Shown here in pieces: positions 1 through 8,355 of a stretch of 9,351 nt of DNA; the stretch's first letter is position 1, and each line of letters begins with the position of its first letter. The translations under genes and the position numbers were made by a program. The notes beneath the pieces are model-generated. The model did no database searches and had not been told where the DNA came from. It saw only the letters and a list, made by a program, of their open reading frames with translations. The DNA comes from a virus (Duplodnaviria; Heunggongvirae; Uroviricota; Caudoviricetes): IMG/VR virus record IMGVR_UViG_2713896779_000023. One strand, given 5' to 3'.

Positions 1-326
1 AGGGCGTTGCAGCGGGGTTGTCACTTAAGCGTATGGTCAACCTGACAACCCGGTGTCCTCAATGGGGAAGGAATAACCCCGCCATACTTACCGCCGCGCC
101 ATTTCGCGGAGTGCCACAACCGGAAGCGCACGTTCGAAGAAATCTAACGACAAGCCTTCTAAGGGAAAGAGCTTCGCCGTACGCTTTCGCGTTATGCACT
201 GACTTTTCAGGGAAATATCCTTTCAGTAAACTGTCAGTACCGGATTCTTATCCGTGTCCGGCGCACGACCACACGTGACAGCGTGTTGGTCTCCATTTTT
301 AACCCAGAACCTCAATGGAGGATAAA

Positions 327-536
327 ATGCCAAACAAAAAAAGAAATCCGCTTATTGAAAAACAGATTGAATGCCTGGTAAATCAACTCAGGCAATCAGG
401 GTTATTAAAAACTCATTCAGAGTTGAGGCTCACAGAATCAGCATTCGACGATAAATTAAATAATGTCCTTTATAATGGCATTATTGATTTTAATCGTTCT
501 GTTGGTCGCCGCGGCCCTGCTGGTGTTTCCTTATAA
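327..536 (+). CDS. hypothetical small protein, 69 aa from the second ATG (ORF-track start is 315)
   Basis: GGAGG at 317-321 lies 5 nt before ATG 327. The gene is AT-rich, and its TAA stop (534-536) directly abuts the stop of the convergent minus-strand gene (TAATTA). No recognisable motif. Confidence 0.4.
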   Translation: MPNKKRNPLIEKQIECLVNQLRQSGLLKTHSELRLTESAFDDKLNNVLYNGIIDFNRSVGRRGPAGVSL

Positions 537-1175
537 TTACCAGTCAATCCAGAGTGGACCGTGTTCAGCGTAAATATAACTGTACACATCCAGATTATAT
601 TTGTGGTCTGTTAAGAACAGGCCGCAAATACATGCCGAAGCTTCCAGTGCAGCGGCTCTGTTACTGAATAACCATGTAGCAACATTCCAGCGTTTTTCTG
701 CATCCCAGTCTTTCTCAAGGCCTGATACCATGAAGAAACCGTTAGTGTTGCCATCAAATAATTCTGTTTCCAAATTTTTAAGCAATGCCTGATGGACTCT
801 TGCCAGGTATTCCGCCGGAATTTCGCCACGAATTCTGATGAGATTGTCATAAACAAACATGTTCCCCGCATATGGCGATTTTTCTTTCTTGTTTTTTAAA
901 CCAGCATCATGAGCAAACTGATCAATTTCTTCTTCCGTTGGTTTCGTATTGATGTTTTGCGCTGTCGTTTCTGCAATTTTATTTGCCACACTCTCTGAGT
1001 CGTGTTTATTTATAGACGCACAGAAATACAATCCGGTAAACGCATCGCGCACATTACGAGCCATATTATCAGTGTCTTTTTTCGTTACCGATTCCAATTC
1101 AAGTTCGTTCAGACGATGACGAAGTGTGTGTGCTGCAATCTCCTGGATTGAAGGAGGTAAATCTTTAAATTCCAT
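537..1175 (-). CDS. hypothetical protein Y, 212 aa (216 aa if the upstream ATG at 1187 is used); second gene of a two-gene module downstream of the cI-like repressor
   Basis: Long minus-strand ORF in the track. GAGG at 1182-1185 sits 6 nt before the ATG at 1175. The translation is protein-like (mixed charged and hydrophobic) but I recognise no family. Composition is AT-rich relative to the replication genes. Confidence 0.65.
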   Translation of the reverse strand: MEFKDLPPSIQEIAAHTLRHRLNELELESVTKKDTDNMARNVRDAFTGLYFCASINKHDSESVANKIAETTAQNINTKPTEEEIDQFAHDAGLKNKKEKSPYAGNMFVYDNLIRIRGEIPAEYLARVHQALLKNLETELFDGNTNGFFMVSGLEKDWDAEKRWNVATWLFSNRAAALEASACICGLFLTDHKYNLDVYSYIYAEHGPLWIDW

Positions 1176-1186
1176 CGTCAACCTCA

Positions 1187-1411
1187 TCAGTCAGTGTTTC
1201 TGGCTAACCAGCGACGCGCGCCAGCTTCAGTTTTAAACGTTTTGCTTTTGGTATACGTCATCGCGGTGAACGTACCGTCCTGGTTGGGGAACACGCCACA
1301 TACCAGAGATTCGTTGTTGCCAAGATTGAGCGTATCCATGTTGACCTCATTTCCCCTTAACGCCGGGGTAGCGGAACAAAAACCTGCTGCATAGTTATTA
1401 AAGTTGAACCC
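1187..1411 (-). CDS. hypothetical protein X, partial (5' end lies in or beyond the N run 1412-1461); first gene of the module
   Basis: The minus-strand frame is open from the gap edge (1411) to TGA at 1187-1189, which overlaps the ATG at 1185-1187 of the next gene (TGATG). Hand translation gives ...GFNFNNYAAGFCSATPALRGNEVNMDTLNLGNNESLVCGVFPNQDGTFTAMTYTKSKTFKTEAGARRWLARNTD. There is an internal ATG at 1337-1339 with GAGG 5 nt upstream. It is absent from the ORF track only because it is short or interrupted. Confidence 0.45.
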   Translation of the reverse strand, partial: GFNFNNYAAGFCSATPALRGNEVNMDTLNLGNNESLVCGVFPNQDGTFTAMTYTKSKTFKTEAGARRWLARNTD

Positions 1412-1461
1412 NNNNNNNNNNNNNNNNNNNNNNNNNNNNNNNNNNNNNNNNNNNNNNNNNN
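1412..1461. other. run of 50 N (masked or unresolved sequence)
   Basis: Literal n characters; interrupts gene X. Confidence 1.
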
Positions 1462-1667: not shown

Positions 1668-2306
1668 TTAAATATCTTGTTGAATTTTAAAGCATACTCC
1701 CAATATGCAAGATAGATCATCCAGCATAATTGAAGGGTAGCGAGGATTCGTGGGGACTAAAAGAATATCCGGCCCTTCTATCTCCAGTTTGCGAATGACA
1801 GGCGTTGTGGTCCCTTTGGGTAAGGCAAGGACAATATTTCCTGGTTGTACGATTCGATCGGGATCAACAAAAACTGTTGAACCATTTGGGATGGAAACTC
1901 CACCACCAGATGTCGACATACTGTCACTCTCTAGAACAACAGCAAAGGTATTGGCCGGGATTTCTCCGACAAGCTGCACACAAGAGGTTATTGAGGAATT
2001 TTTCATATAATCACTCCAGCTTGCTGCCTGCTGAAGTGATAGTAGCGGAACCGTTTTTATCGGCGGTAAAGATAGATCAAGCGAATCACCTGTATTTAAC
2101 TCTCCTCCATTAAGAAGCCAATTTTCGTTTACTTTCAATATCTTTGCCAGTGAACTTATGTAACGCGAGGACGGCGCTCCTCCACCGTTCATCCATTGAC
2201 TTACGGAGCCTTTTGATGCGCCAGTGGCATTGACAAGGTCTTTGCCTTTCAAGTTTAGCGCATGCATACGTTGGGTTATGCGTTCAGATATTGTTTGCTT
2301 GTTCAT
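1668..2306 (-). CDS. cI-like prophage repressor (N-terminal XRE-type HTH, C-terminal S24 LexA-like autopeptidase)
   Basis: 212-aa ORF. The N-terminus has an HTH pattern (GKDLVNATGASKGSVSQWMNG). The C-terminus has the Ser...Lys signature of S24 peptidases (ESDSMS ... PVIRKL). It is transcribed divergently from a cro-like gene. No SD precedes the ATG at 2306, consistent with a leaderless PRM-type transcript. Confidence 0.85.
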   Translation of the reverse strand: MNKQTISERITQRMHALNLKGKDLVNATGASKGSVSQWMNGGGAPSSRYISSLAKILKVNENWLLNGGELNTGDSLDLSLPPIKTVPLLSLQQAASWSDYMKNSSITSCVQLVGEIPANTFAVVLESDSMSTSGGGVSIPNGSTVFVDPDRIVQPGNIVLALPKGTTTPVIRKLEIEGPDILLVPTNPRYPSIMLDDLSCILGVCFKIQQDI

Positions 2307-7216: not shown

Positions 7217-7314
7217 AAACGGTTTGCGGGAAAAGGATAGTTAAGTAGAATTGCTGCGGGTGCTTGAGGCTATCTGCCTCGGGCATGAACACCAACGGCA
7301 GATAGAGAAAAGCC

Positions 7315-7364
7315 NNNNNNNNNNNNNNNNNNNNNNNNNNNNNNNNNNNNNNNNNNNNNNNNNN
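7315..7364. other. run of 50 N (masked or unresolved sequence)
   Basis: Literal n characters. Confidence 1.
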
Positions 7365-7606
7365 ATCGTCATCTGTTTAACCGTCATAGTGACGGCACTG
7401 GTAACGAGGAAAGACCTCTGCGAGGTGCGAATCCGAACCGGTCAGACGGAGGTCGCTGTCTTCGTAGACTACGAATCTGAGAAGTAAGAGACCAGGCGGG
7501 GGAGTAATCTCCCGCCACCTCTGATGTGTCAGGCATCCTCAACGCACCCGCGCTTTACCATACTGAAAATGCTGTTTGAATGTTCATCTCTGAAAGAGGA
7601 CTATGA

Positions 7607-8305: not shown

Positions 8306-8355
8306 NNNNNNNNNNNNNNNNNNNNNNNNNNNNNNNNNNNNNNNNNNNNNNNNNN
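8306..8355. other. run of 50 N (masked or unresolved sequence)
   Basis: Literal n characters; the frame relation across it is undefined. Confidence 1.

What the first reader, a model, noticed from the sequence alone, without database searches (positions are those of the whole stretch)
315..545. Small convergent gene whose stop codon abuts the stop of gene Y
A 69-aa plus-strand ORF with a canonical GGAGG SD ends at TAA 534-536, immediately followed by the reverse-complement stop of gene Y (TTA 537-539). The two convergent genes therefore have zero intergenic distance and no terminator between them, so their transcripts must overlap at the 3' ends. This could mean antisense interference or a third component of the module, or the small ORF could be spurious.
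Basis: partly seen in the sequence, partly recalled or inferred. Interest (0 to 1): 0.45.

Follow-up and report, generated by a model that had tools for sequence, protein, structure and literature searches.

The report
Small prophage gene paired tail-to-tail
The 69-codon reading frame is a real, conserved gene that sits backwards inside a prophage's repressed early operon, is kept tail-to-tail with the end domain of its neighbour Y even in unrelated mobile elements, and is probably a partner or inhibitor of that domain, though its function is untested.

Summary
There is a GGAGG at 317-321, an ATG at 327 and a TAA at 534-536, and this stop directly abuts the stop of Y (TTA 537-539). No terminator is predicted.

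The ORF is a real gene (RefSeq WP_001133037.1, phrog_4274):
- dN/dS is about 0.2 in its own frame only.
- Variable sites split 16/14/36 by codon position across 23 alleles.
- Homologues at 43-53% identity exist.
- The AlphaFold model is a confident helical hairpin.

The window is a Qin/DicB-type lambdoid prophage of E. coli O157:H7. dicF lies 12 nt left of base 1, so the whole gene lies antisense inside the long untranslated stretch of the repressor-controlled dicBF early operon, not just at Y's 3' end.

The gene follows a conserved 90-nt leader with three hairpins, the last of which covers the Shine-Dalgarno sequence. In six of seven unrelated upstream contexts a -10-like hexamer precedes the leader at a fixed offset. 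The same leader and ATG drive at least six unrelated small ORFs, each next to a different Y C-terminal type.

This family stays tail-to-tail with the Y C-domain down to about 32% identity, under four different N-terminal architectures. Two distant homologues lack the Y C-domain.

Best reading (inferred): a self-promoted, lysogen-expressed partner or inhibitor of Y's C-domain, arranged like the immunity gene of pore-forming colicins. The function is unproven.

The parts
204..232 (+). Putative sigma-70 promoter of the small gene: -35-like TTTTCA at 204-209, a 17-nt spacer, and -10-like TAAACT at 227-232. The -10 ends 7 nt before the first hairpin.
   Evidence: Inferred. It scores below the scan threshold. 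However, in 6 of 7 non-homologous upstream contexts a hexamer matching TATAAT at 4/6 or better ends 6-7 nt before hairpin H1. Phage phiP27 has TTGAGA-17-GATAAT at that place.
240..261 (+). Leader hairpin H1 (CCGGAT..GTCCGG), the left edge of the conserved leader and probably the 5' end of the mRNA.
   Evidence: Predicted in all 8 leaders folded singly and in the consensus fold. All six stem pairs are unchanged in the 13 sequences, apart from one G-G at the closing pair, so there is no covariation. It is also retained in K-12 Qin, which lacks the cassette.
268..290 (+). Leader hairpin H2 (ACCACACG / loop TGACAG / CGTGTTGGT).
   Evidence: The stem sequence is entirely different in L142, L143 and L147 but sits at the same position. 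There is a G-C to U.G to U-A series, and the loop is inverted in some alleles.
291..320 (+). Leader hairpin H3: CTCCAT (291-296) pairs with ATGGAG (315-320), occluding the Shine-Dalgarno sequence. An alternative pairing, CAUUUU with AAAAUG, occludes the start codon.
   Evidence: It is part of the consensus structure, with stem columns invariant in 13 sequences and loops that vary in length and sequence. In single folds H3 is the minimum-energy structure in 3 of 8 leaders and the start-codon-occluding alternative in another 3 of 8.
317..321 (+). Shine-Dalgarno GGAGG, 5 nt upstream of the ATG.
   Evidence: Read directly from the sequence.
327..536 (+). Small gene of 69 aa (WP_001133037.1, phrog_4274). 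The predicted protein has helix 8-24, a loop, helix 37-59, and a flexible Gly/Pro/Arg tail GRRGPAGVSL.
336..342 (+). A7 tract in codons 4-6 of the small gene; a frameshift hot spot.
   Evidence: An A6 allele (17-aa product) occurs in 8 of 80 loci. Y is intact in 5 of them, and a sixth has an intact Y start at a contig end.
537..1187 (-). Gene Y (216 aa from the ATG at 1187, or 212 aa as annotated from 1175; phrog_2151). It has an N-terminal helical domain beginning 'MEFKDLP' (about residues 1-50) that is shared with other families, and a C-terminal alpha/beta domain (about residues 97-212, window about 540-890) that is the conserved partner of the small gene.
1187..1339 (-). Gene X, DUF1391/YdfA-like, 50 aa. 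Its stop overlaps the Y start (ATGA at 1185-1189). It belongs to the operon but not to the conserved pair.
   Evidence: The pair occurs without a called DUF1391 gene in L140 and L142.
1..267 (-). Upstream spacer of dicF within the dicBF early operon. It is 92% identical to the ydfC-dicF spacer of K-12 Qin. dicF itself begins 12 nt left of window base 1.
   Evidence: operon structure from PMC5069750.

Best explanation
The 69-aa ORF is a genuine protein-coding gene. It has its own promoter and a structured 5' leader that masks the ribosome-binding site. It is inserted backwards in the untranslated stretch between gene Y and dicF of the repressor-controlled early-left (dicBF) operon of a lambdoid prophage.

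Its product is a small soluble helical hairpin with a conserved Gly/Pro/Arg tail. It is the cognate partner, most likely a binding inhibitor or modulator ('immunity-like'), of the C-terminal alpha/beta domain of Y.

Because the two genes converge with no gap and no terminator, their expression should be mutually exclusive. In the lysogen the early operon is repressed and only the small gene is transcribed. After induction, or in an incoming phage, strong early transcription runs antisense across the small gene and its leader. That would silence it through promoter occlusion, polymerase collision and duplex RNA, and so free Y.

Shown here:
- The gene is real.
- It is nested antisense in the operon.
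- The leader structure is conserved.
- The pairing with the Y C-domain is conserved.

Inferred:
- The promoter and lysogenic expression.
- Physical interaction with Y.
- The switch logic.
For: (1) Coding. dN/dS is 0.18-0.29 only in the annotated frame. Variable sites are 16/14/36 by codon position over 23 alleles. A profile search of 1.84 billion proteins found homologues of 64-78 aa at 43-53% identity, and two of them keep the C-terminal GRRGPAGV-L-type tail. The AlphaFold2 model has pLDDT 82, above 90 in the two helices.

(2) Nesting. DicF (75 bits) lies 12 nt left of the window, with dicB beyond it. Window 1-267 is 92% identical to the K-12 ydfC-dicF spacer. The operon is polycistronic with a long UTR (PMC5069750).

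(3) Own expression platform.
- The leader has three hairpins, with covariation in H2 and an H3 stem that covers the SD.
- The sequence upstream of H1 is non-homologous in 7 contexts.
- In 6 of the 7 a -10-like hexamer ends 6-7 nt before H1. In phiP27 this is the near-consensus TTGAGA-17-GATAAT.
- The same leader and ATG precede at least six unrelated ORF families of 59-101 aa.

(4) Pairing. All loci where Y was found and both genes are intact have a gap of 0 (62 of 72). The pair recurs in several forms:
- In a Salmonella integrative element (Y at 70% identity, small gene at 77%).
- With a Y that has lost its N-domain.
- With 220-aa and 294-307-aa proteins that share only the C-domain (32-41% identity, E 2e-15 to 4e-13), next to 64-aa homologues. 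These are always tail-to-tail, overlapping by 11-53 nt, in Cox/integrase elements.

(5) Each small-ORF family is linked to its own Y C-terminal type (212, 186, 122, 112, 65 or 52 aa) with no mixing in about 135 loci.

(6) The geometry matches pore-forming colicin operons, where the immunity gene lies on the opposite strand with its own promoter (PMC9517006).
Against: - No transcript, translation or interaction data exist. The promoter in this window is weak by consensus (8/12) and was not reported by the scan.
- Linkage between the small ORF and the Y C-domain could be mere adjacency, because zero gap leaves no room for recombination.
- Two distant homologues (P0158, P0160) occur without any Y C-domain nearby. 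One small-ORF family (C61) sits next to a Y that has only the N-domain.
- The small gene is lost more often than Y. The A6 frameshift is in 8 of 80 loci, and four Y clusters end in WFKG, the ending of the one locus examined (L138), where window 329-490 is deleted and Y is intact. So it is dispensable for carrying Y.
- The Y model is only moderately confident (pLDDT 64).
Confidence: 0.45

Rival explanations
1. Independent 'moron'. The small gene is a self-promoted lysogenic-conversion or exclusion gene whose function has nothing to do with Y. It sits in a recombination slot bounded by the conserved leader on one side and the conserved 5' part of Y on the other, so it merely hitch-hikes with whatever Y C-terminus is adjacent.
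For: The slot holds at least six unrelated small ORFs behind one common leader. The variable segment is flanked by conserved sequence on both sides. Homologues P0158 and P0160 exist without a Y C-domain. Family C61 accompanies a Y with no C-domain. The small gene can be lost while Y stays intact.
Against: The pair persists down to about 32-45% identity in elements of a different type. Meanwhile Y's N-terminal part has been exchanged, deleted or expanded with an HTH insert. Recombination has therefore repeatedly cut inside Y but never between the Y C-domain and this small gene. The tail-to-tail overlap is kept in every case.
Confidence: 0.3
2. The effect is mainly at the RNA or transcription level. 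The convergent unit acts as a brake on leaky read-through from the early promoter into the toxic downstream genes dicF, dicB and ydfD, and/or as a cis-antisense RNA against Y mRNA. The encoded peptide would be of secondary importance.
For: The unit is fully nested antisense between Y and dicF, with no terminator. The leader is more conserved than the coding sequence. Unrelated ORFs are interchangeable behind it. The downstream genes are known division inhibitors (PMC5069750).
Against: There is clear purifying selection on the protein, and likewise on family B64. The protein tail motif is conserved at long range. K-12 Qin carries dicF and dicB without the cassette. The pair also occurs in elements with no dicB gene called in the stretches examined.
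Confidence: 0.15
3. A classical toxin-antitoxin pair. Either type II, with Y as toxin and the small protein as antitoxin, or type I, with the 36-aa hydrophobic ORF 463-573 as toxin.
For: There are two adjacent small genes on a mobile element. A hydrophobic 36-aa frame (MSFIMALLILIVLLVAAALLVF...) overlaps the 3' end.
Against: - The genes are convergent and not co-transcribed.
- Y's start overlaps the stop of X inside a repressed operon, and no separate promoter for Y is evident.
- The putative antitoxin is repeatedly lost while Y stays intact.
- There are no TA, PADLOC or Pfam hits.
- The hydrophobic frame shows dN/dS of 0.64 to 5 (above 1 in 5 of 6 allele pairs), so it is not conserved as coding.
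Confidence: 0.05
4. A spurious ORF in a non-coding spacer.
For: Many ORFs of similar length in the window are spurious. Apart from PHROGs, no curated family matches, and tblastn finds nothing in 50,697 phage records.
Against: argue against this: frame-specific purifying selection, distant homologues and a confident fold. In addition, an ORF of at least 59 codons starts at the same conserved ATG in all six cassette types.
Confidence: 0.02

Closest known systems
Immunity genes of pore-forming (ionophoric) colicin operons (cxa - cxi on the opposite strand - cxl)
   Same: - A small partner gene lies on the opposite strand, immediately after the 3' end of the inducible structural gene and before the downstream lethal genes. 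Here those are dicF, dicB and the lysis-protein gene ydfD; in colicin operons it is the lysis gene.
- The partner gene has its own promoter, so the induced operon transcript is antisense to it (PMC9517006; geometry).
- The structural protein has a conserved N-terminal part and a variable C-terminal domain that co-varies with the partner gene.
   Different: - Y is not a colicin. It has no receptor or translocation domains and no pore-forming or nuclease domain.
- The small protein is a soluble helical hairpin with no transmembrane segment, whereas pore-former immunity proteins are integral membrane proteins.
- Control is by a prophage repressor, not shown to be LexA.
- Toxicity of Y is unknown.
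Excludon and other convergent-transcription switches (Listeria excludons; face-to-face pR/pL of coliphage 186) - from my own knowledge
   Same: Two oppositely oriented units overlap, so that transcription of one is antisense to the other. This predicts mutually exclusive expression states.
   Different: No transcript maps are available here. The overlap partner is a protein-coding gene nested inside an operon's UTR, not a long 5' or 3' UTR spanning a neighbouring gene.
Polymorphic toxin / immunity cassettes (CdiA-CT/CdiI, Rhs)
   Same: There is a conserved N-terminal region, swappable C-terminal domains, and an adjacent small gene that co-varies. Cassettes can be stacked in tandem.
   Different: Immunity genes in those systems follow on the same strand. 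No secretion or delivery domain and no known toxin fold is present. Y is small (52-307 aa) and intracellular, and sits in a phage early operon.
Lambdoid 'morons' and lysogen-expressed exclusion genes (for example lambda rexAB and sieB) - from my own knowledge
   Same: A small accessory gene with an autonomous promoter is embedded in a prophage transcription unit that is silent in the lysogen. The position is highly mosaic.
   Different: Classical morons carry their own terminator and are not kept in a fixed tail-to-tail pair with a particular domain of the neighbouring gene. No terminator is predicted here.
dicBF operon of the Qin prophage (ydfA-ydfB-ydfC-dicF-dicB-ydfD)
   Same: The window is the same operon type: DUF1391/YdfA (X), then a variable gene, a long spacer, dicF and dicB.
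   Different: K-12 has ydfC in place of Y. It has no plus-strand gene and keeps only hairpin H1 of the leader. The published descriptions I read do not mention an antisense gene in the spacer (PMC5069750).

Membership tests
PHROG phrog_4274 (69-aa phage protein, unknown function) | Full-length match to the family profile. | tested here: met
   E 1.2e-51, residues 1-69 against profile positions 1-69 of 69.
Type II toxin-antitoxin system | Toxin and antitoxin are co-transcribed from one autoregulated promoter. | tested here: not met
   The genes are convergent. Y's start overlaps the stop of X inside the early operon.
Type II toxin-antitoxin system | Recognisable toxin or antitoxin domains. | tested here: not met
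   No Pfam, PADLOC or PDB sequence hits were found. The fold searches were uninformative.
Type II toxin-antitoxin system | The antitoxin cannot be lost while the toxin stays intact. | tested here: not met
   Frameshift and deletion alleles of the small gene occur with Y intact.
Type I toxin-antitoxin system (small hydrophobic toxin plus antisense RNA) | A conserved small hydrophobic ORF. | tested here: not met
   The 36-aa ORF 463-573 lies in frame +1, where dN/dS is 0.64-5 and above 1 in 5 of 6 allele pairs.
Pore-forming colicin immunity arrangement | The partner gene lies on the opposite strand between the structural gene and the downstream lethal or lysis genes. | tested here: met
   The order is Y (-), small gene (+), dicF/dicB/DUF1482-ydfD (-). 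The rule is from PMC9517006.
Pore-forming colicin immunity arrangement | The partner gene has its own constitutive promoter. | tested here: inconclusive
   A -10-like hexamer sits at a fixed offset in 6 of 7 contexts, and phiP27 has a near-consensus promoter. The window's own match is weak and no transcript data exist.
Pore-forming colicin immunity arrangement | The structural gene encodes a colicin and the immunity protein is an inner-membrane protein. | tested here: not met
   Y has no colicin domains. The small protein is predicted to be a soluble two-helix hairpin.
Polymorphic toxin system | A conserved N-terminal region with variable C-terminal domains. | tested here: met
   The N-terminus (residues 5-55 to 5-79, depending on family) matches five PHROG families. 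Six C-terminal types were seen.
Polymorphic toxin system | A known toxin domain, with the immunity gene downstream on the same strand. | tested here: not met
   No toxin domain or fold was found. The partner gene is convergent.
Excludon | An experimentally mapped long antisense transcript covering the opposing gene. | not testable with these tools
   This needs strand-specific RNA-seq. Only the absence of predicted terminators is known.
Any Rfam family (for the leader) | A covariance-model match. | tested here: not met
   No hit in 200-330 at E <= 1. An anti-hemB match over the coding start at 338-410 on the minus strand is chance level (E 0.2).

The most novel reading that the evidence does not exclude
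The slot between Y and dicF holds a family of exchangeable two-gene cassettes, each made of a variable early-protein C-domain and a cognate inhibitor. The inhibitor is expressed in the lysogen from a shared riboregulated leader.

The resident prophage would use the small protein to neutralise the matching early protein of incoming heteroimmune relatives, giving type-specific superinfection exclusion. It would switch off its own copy by convergent early transcription when it is induced. This would be a phage-against-phage 'effector/immunity' system built into the early operon, organised like colicin immunity.
Probability: 0.2. Interest if true: 0.75.

Novelty: new variant of a known kind. Interest (0 to 1): 0.55.

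Why it matters
The dicBF early operon of Qin-type prophages is present in most E. coli genomes. Parts of the first 1410 bases of this window matched 4375 of the 5426 complete genomes searched, and the operon is studied for DicF and DicB. Its spacer has been treated as untranslated.

This work shows that in many prophages, including several in O157:H7 and other STEC, the spacer carries a backwards, self-contained gene on a common structured leader. It also shows that this gene and the end domain of the preceding early gene form an exchangeable cassette.

If the pairing is functional, it defines a new and easily testable class of phage early-protein/inhibitor pairs. These could underlie type-specific exclusion or a safety catch on early-gene leakage. 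It would also provide a natural example of a convergent-transcription switch.

It further flags a conserved leader that masks the ribosome-binding site as a candidate riboregulator, shared by at least seven unrelated small genes.

Tried and rejected
- Hydrophobic 36-aa ORF 463-573 as a type I toxin. Rejected: no purifying selection in that frame.
- Pfam, PADLOC and PDB sequence searches for the small protein, Y and five sister cassettes. Nothing significant.
- Two scans of one-genome-per-species contigs, one by protein pattern and one by leader pattern, found nothing. tblastn of the small protein against 50,697 phage records also found nothing. The family is confined to Escherichia/Salmonella prophages and a few Stx phages.
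- Rfam has no family for the leader.
- Hairpin H2 plus the U-run as a plus-strand terminator. Rejected: 5 nt intervene, and the L142-type leaders have no U-run.
- Literature searches for the accessions, 'ybl81', DUF1391, and dicF with antisense or TSS terms gave no description of this gene.
Full report
**Observation**

The plus strand has GGAGG at 317-321, ATG at 327 and TAA at 534-536. The next three bases, TTA at 537-539, are the stop of the minus-strand ORF 537-1187, gene Y. No terminator-like site is predicted on either strand in 1-1700. The description is therefore accurate. An ORF of 69-73 codons is not remarkable in itself: the window lists 68 ORFs of at least 40 aa, mostly spurious. 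The question is whether the ORF is conserved as a coding sequence.

**Where the window comes from**

Bases 1-1410 are 100% identical to prophage DNA in many E. coli O157:H7, O121 and other STEC chromosomes. In strain TR01, RefSeq annotates these genes:
- 327-536 as hypothetical protein WP_001133037.1.
- Y as hypothetical WP_000394548.1.
- The upstream 50-aa gene X (1187-1339) as DUF1391.
- To the left, dicB, a DUF1482 (YdfD-like) gene and a truncated recE.

A DicF RNA gene (Rfam, 75 bits) ends 12 nt to the left of window base 1. Window 1-267 is 92% identical to the ydfC-dicF spacer of the K-12 Qin prophage. [quoted passage not shown]

The minus strand of this window is therefore the early-left operon: a repressor-side promoter, X, Y, the spacer, then dicF and dicB. 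The small plus-strand gene and its leader lie entirely inside that transcription unit, antisense to it.

**Is it a gene?**

1. The protein matches phrog_4274 end to end (E 1e-51) but has no Pfam or PADLOC family.
2. A word-indexed search found only Escherichia and Salmonella relatives at 77-100% identity, plus a frameshifted variant (56% identity by BLASTP) and a few truncated entries.
3. Among four alleles, including Salmonella, dN/dS is 0.18-0.29 in the annotated frame and 0.6-6 in the other two plus-strand frames. Between E. coli and Salmonella, 23 of 40 differences are at third positions.
4. Over 23 distinct alleles from IMG/VR and other loci, variable sites are 16/14/36 by codon position, and the most divergent pair gives dN/dS 0.22.
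5. A profile search of 1.84 billion representative proteins added four small proteins of 64-78 aa at 43-53% identity. These share the core pattern (QIECL..QL.QSGLLK.PS.L....F..KL...GI..FN). Two of them also share the C-terminal GRRGPAGV-L-type tail.
6. AlphaFold2 on this alignment gives a confident helical hairpin: helices 8-24 and 37-59, pLDDT above 90 in the core and a mean of 82, with a disordered tail.

I conclude with high confidence that the ORF is a real gene. A 36-aa hydrophobic frame (463-573) that looked like a type I toxin is not conserved as coding.

**A shared leader**

Aligning the E. coli and Salmonella loci showed that the 90 nt before the ATG are more conserved than the gene itself. 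A blastn search of 230-560 against complete E. coli genomes showed two things. Full-length matches (at least 80% of the query) occur in 596 of the 1271 genomes with any match. Other records match only the first 100 nt or so, that is, the leader up to the ATG.

In those genomes, behind the same leader, Shine-Dalgarno sequence and ATG, there is a different ORF. A pattern scan of IMG/VR with the leader end returned 120 loci. Together with loci fetched earlier, this gave 137 matches. These contain six unrelated ORF families starting at that ATG:
- A69, the family of this finding.
- B64.
- C61.
- C2-59.
- D100.
- E80, which is zinc-ribbon-like.

Phage phiP27 adds a seventh.

The leader folds into three hairpins.
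- H1 (240-261) is nearly invariant.
- H2 (268-290) has a completely different stem sequence at the same position in the distant L142, L143 and L147 leaders. It also shows a G-C to U.G to U-A series, which is tolerated only on the plus-strand RNA, and a flipped loop in some alleles.
- H3 pairs CTCCAT (291-296) with ATGGAG (315-320). It thereby sequesters the Shine-Dalgarno sequence, or alternatively the AUG.

Single-sequence folds have z-scores of -2.5 to -4.0 in seven of eight leaders and -1.6 in the eighth. There is no Rfam match.

Upstream of H1 the sequence is non-homologous in seven contexts. Yet in six of them a hexamer matching TATAAT at four or more positions ends 6-7 nt before H1:
- TAAACT (this window).
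- TATAAC.
- TAAAAT.
- TGA-TATATC.
- TGA-TATAGG.
- GATAAT.

phiP27 has TTGAGA-17-GATAAT at that place. By my estimate this is very unlikely by chance (roughly 1e-5). It suggests that the conserved block begins at the transcription start. This is an inference: the window's own promoter is weak and was not reported by the scan.

**The pairing with Y**

Y's N-terminal 50-75 residues (MEFKDLP...) match five PHROG families, whereas its C-terminus is specific to phrog_2151. In the IMG/VR set each small-ORF family goes with one Y type, always tail-to-tail:

| Small-ORF family | Y length | Junction |
|---|---|---|
| A69 | 212 aa | gap 0 in all loci where Y was found and both genes are intact |
| B64 | 112 aa | 12-nt overlap |
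| D100 | 122 aa | 77-nt overlap |
| E80 | 186 aa | 44-nt overlap |
| C2-59 | 65 aa | 68- or 120-nt overlap |
| C61 | 52 aa (N-domain only) | 29-nt overlap in 9 of 11 loci |

Adjacency alone could explain this linkage, so I looked for deeper cases.

1. A Salmonella integrative element with no dicB gene called in the stretch examined carries a 200-aa Y (70% identity) abutting a 69-aa homologue (77% identity).
2. Other Salmonella copies have a Y that has lost residues about 6-95 but keeps the C-domain and the abutting small gene. They also carry a second, stacked cassette of the B64 type.
3. The 64-aa homologues P0159 and P0161 lie in Cox/integrase elements. They converge on, and overlap by 53 or 11 nt, proteins of 220 or 294-307 aa. 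The N-terminal parts of those proteins are unrelated to Y, and one has an HTH_3 insert. Their C-domains are homologous to Y's (32-41% identity, E 2e-15 to 4e-13).

Four different architectures therefore share only the C-domain, and each faces an A-family small gene. Recombination has cut within Y repeatedly but has not separated the C-domain from the small gene.

There are counter-examples. P0158 and P0160 (50% and 43% identity, lacking the GRRGPAGV tail) have no Y C-domain within the contig.

The small gene is also dispensable. An A6 slip in the A7 tract (336-342) truncates it in 8 of 80 loci, with Y intact in five of them and a sixth showing an intact Y start at a contig end. In L138, window 329-490 is deleted while Y stays intact. 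The four Y clusters ending in WFKG probably share that deletion, but only L138 was examined.

**What Y is**

**Mechanism**

The best-supported picture has five parts.
1. It is a real, separately promoted gene.
2. Its mRNA begins with a stabilising 5' hairpin and has its ribosome-binding site masked.
3. It is nested antisense in a repressed early operon.
4. It encodes a small soluble protein that is the cognate partner of Y's C-domain.
5. The convergent, terminator-less layout makes expression of the two mutually exclusive.

Parts 1 and 3 are shown here, together with the conserved leader structure of part 2. The stabilising role of H1, part 4 and part 5 are inferred. The arrangement is that of pore-forming colicin operons, where the immunity gene lies on the opposite strand with its own promoter, ahead of the lysis gene (PMC9517006). 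It also resembles excludon-type switches (my own knowledge).

It is not a member of those families. Y is not a colicin, the small protein is not a membrane protein, and no toxin domain is present. A classical type II TA is disfavoured, because the genes are convergent, Y sits in a repressed operon, and the 'antitoxin' is lost first.

The main rival is an independent moron in a recombination slot. A second rival is a chiefly RNA-level brake on read-through into dicF and dicB.

**Novelty and verdict**

The gene is already annotated as hypothetical, and PHROGs lists it. I found no paper describing any of the following:
- Its nesting in the dicBF spacer.
- The shared structured leader.
- The cassette behaviour.
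- The conserved pairing with the Y C-domain.

I rate it a new variant of a known kind of arrangement, with a sound observation and an unproven function. Interest is 0.55.

Noticed in passing
window 7251-7487 (+): A hok/sok-type type I toxin-antitoxin locus. The ORF ends ...CEVRIRTGQTEVAVFVDYESEK. There is a partial Rfam sok hit at 7260-7314 (41.8 bits, below the gathering score of 59). TR01 annotates a Hok/Gef family protein here. The locus is interrupted by a masked N run.
   Followed up: partly
window 1412-1461, 7315-7364, 8306-8355: Three masked runs of exactly 50 N. The first lies just upstream of gene X, where the early promoter and operator region would be expected, so the early promoter could not be examined in the window.
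   Followed up: partly
window 463-573 (+): A 36-aa strongly hydrophobic ORF (MSFIMALLILIVLLVAAALLVFPYNYQSIQSGPCSA) lies in frame +1 of the small gene and runs 37 nt into the 3' end of Y. It looks like a type I toxin, but dN/dS in that frame is 0.64-5, above 1 in 5 of 6 allele pairs.
   Followed up: yes
window 268-290 (+): Hairpin H2 of the leader has its 6-nt loop inverted in some alleles (TGACAG versus CTGTCA). A small hairpin-mediated inversion of this kind is unusual to see in phage DNA.
   Followed up: partly
window 336-342 (+): An A7 tract in codons 4-6 of the small gene. An A6 frameshift allele occurs in 8 of 80 loci, on at least three different allele backgrounds. This could be a mutational hot spot or on/off switching.
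   Followed up: partly
window 1185-1189 (-): The stop of X (TGA) and the start of Y (ATG) share one base (ATGA), which suggests translational coupling. RefSeq starts Y 12 nt further in, although MRLTM is conserved in other loci.
   Followed up: partly
L002-L004 (Salmonella enterica contigs), about 5900-7000 in L002: Two cassettes are stacked in tandem: a B64-type small ORF facing a 119-aa Y, then an A69-type small ORF facing a Y that has only the C-domain. They sit in an integrase/methylase element rather than a dicB-type prophage.
   Followed up: partly
L150 = phage phiP27 NC_003356.1, 5091-5285: A functional Stx2e phage carries the same three-hairpin leader behind a near-consensus promoter (TTGAGA-17-GATAAT). 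It is followed by a 35-aa ORF containing an A8 run. The record instead annotates a different frame, starting at a GTG inside the leader (L09).
   Followed up: partly
L001 8937-8988 (-), 12 nt left of window base 1; window 1-267: The DicF sRNA gene lies just outside the window. The window's first 267 bases are the conserved pre-dicF spacer. Hairpin H1 is retained even in K-12 Qin, which has no plus-strand gene, which suggests that K-12 lost a cassette.
   Followed up: partly
window 1668-2306 (-) versus TR01 locus L001 10632-10970: The window's repressor-like ORF is 212 aa (HTH plus S24 peptidase-like). At the corresponding place TR01 annotates a 112-aa LexA-family protein in another register. 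The match to TR01 was tested only for 1-1410, so the immunity region may be mosaic or different.
   Followed up: no
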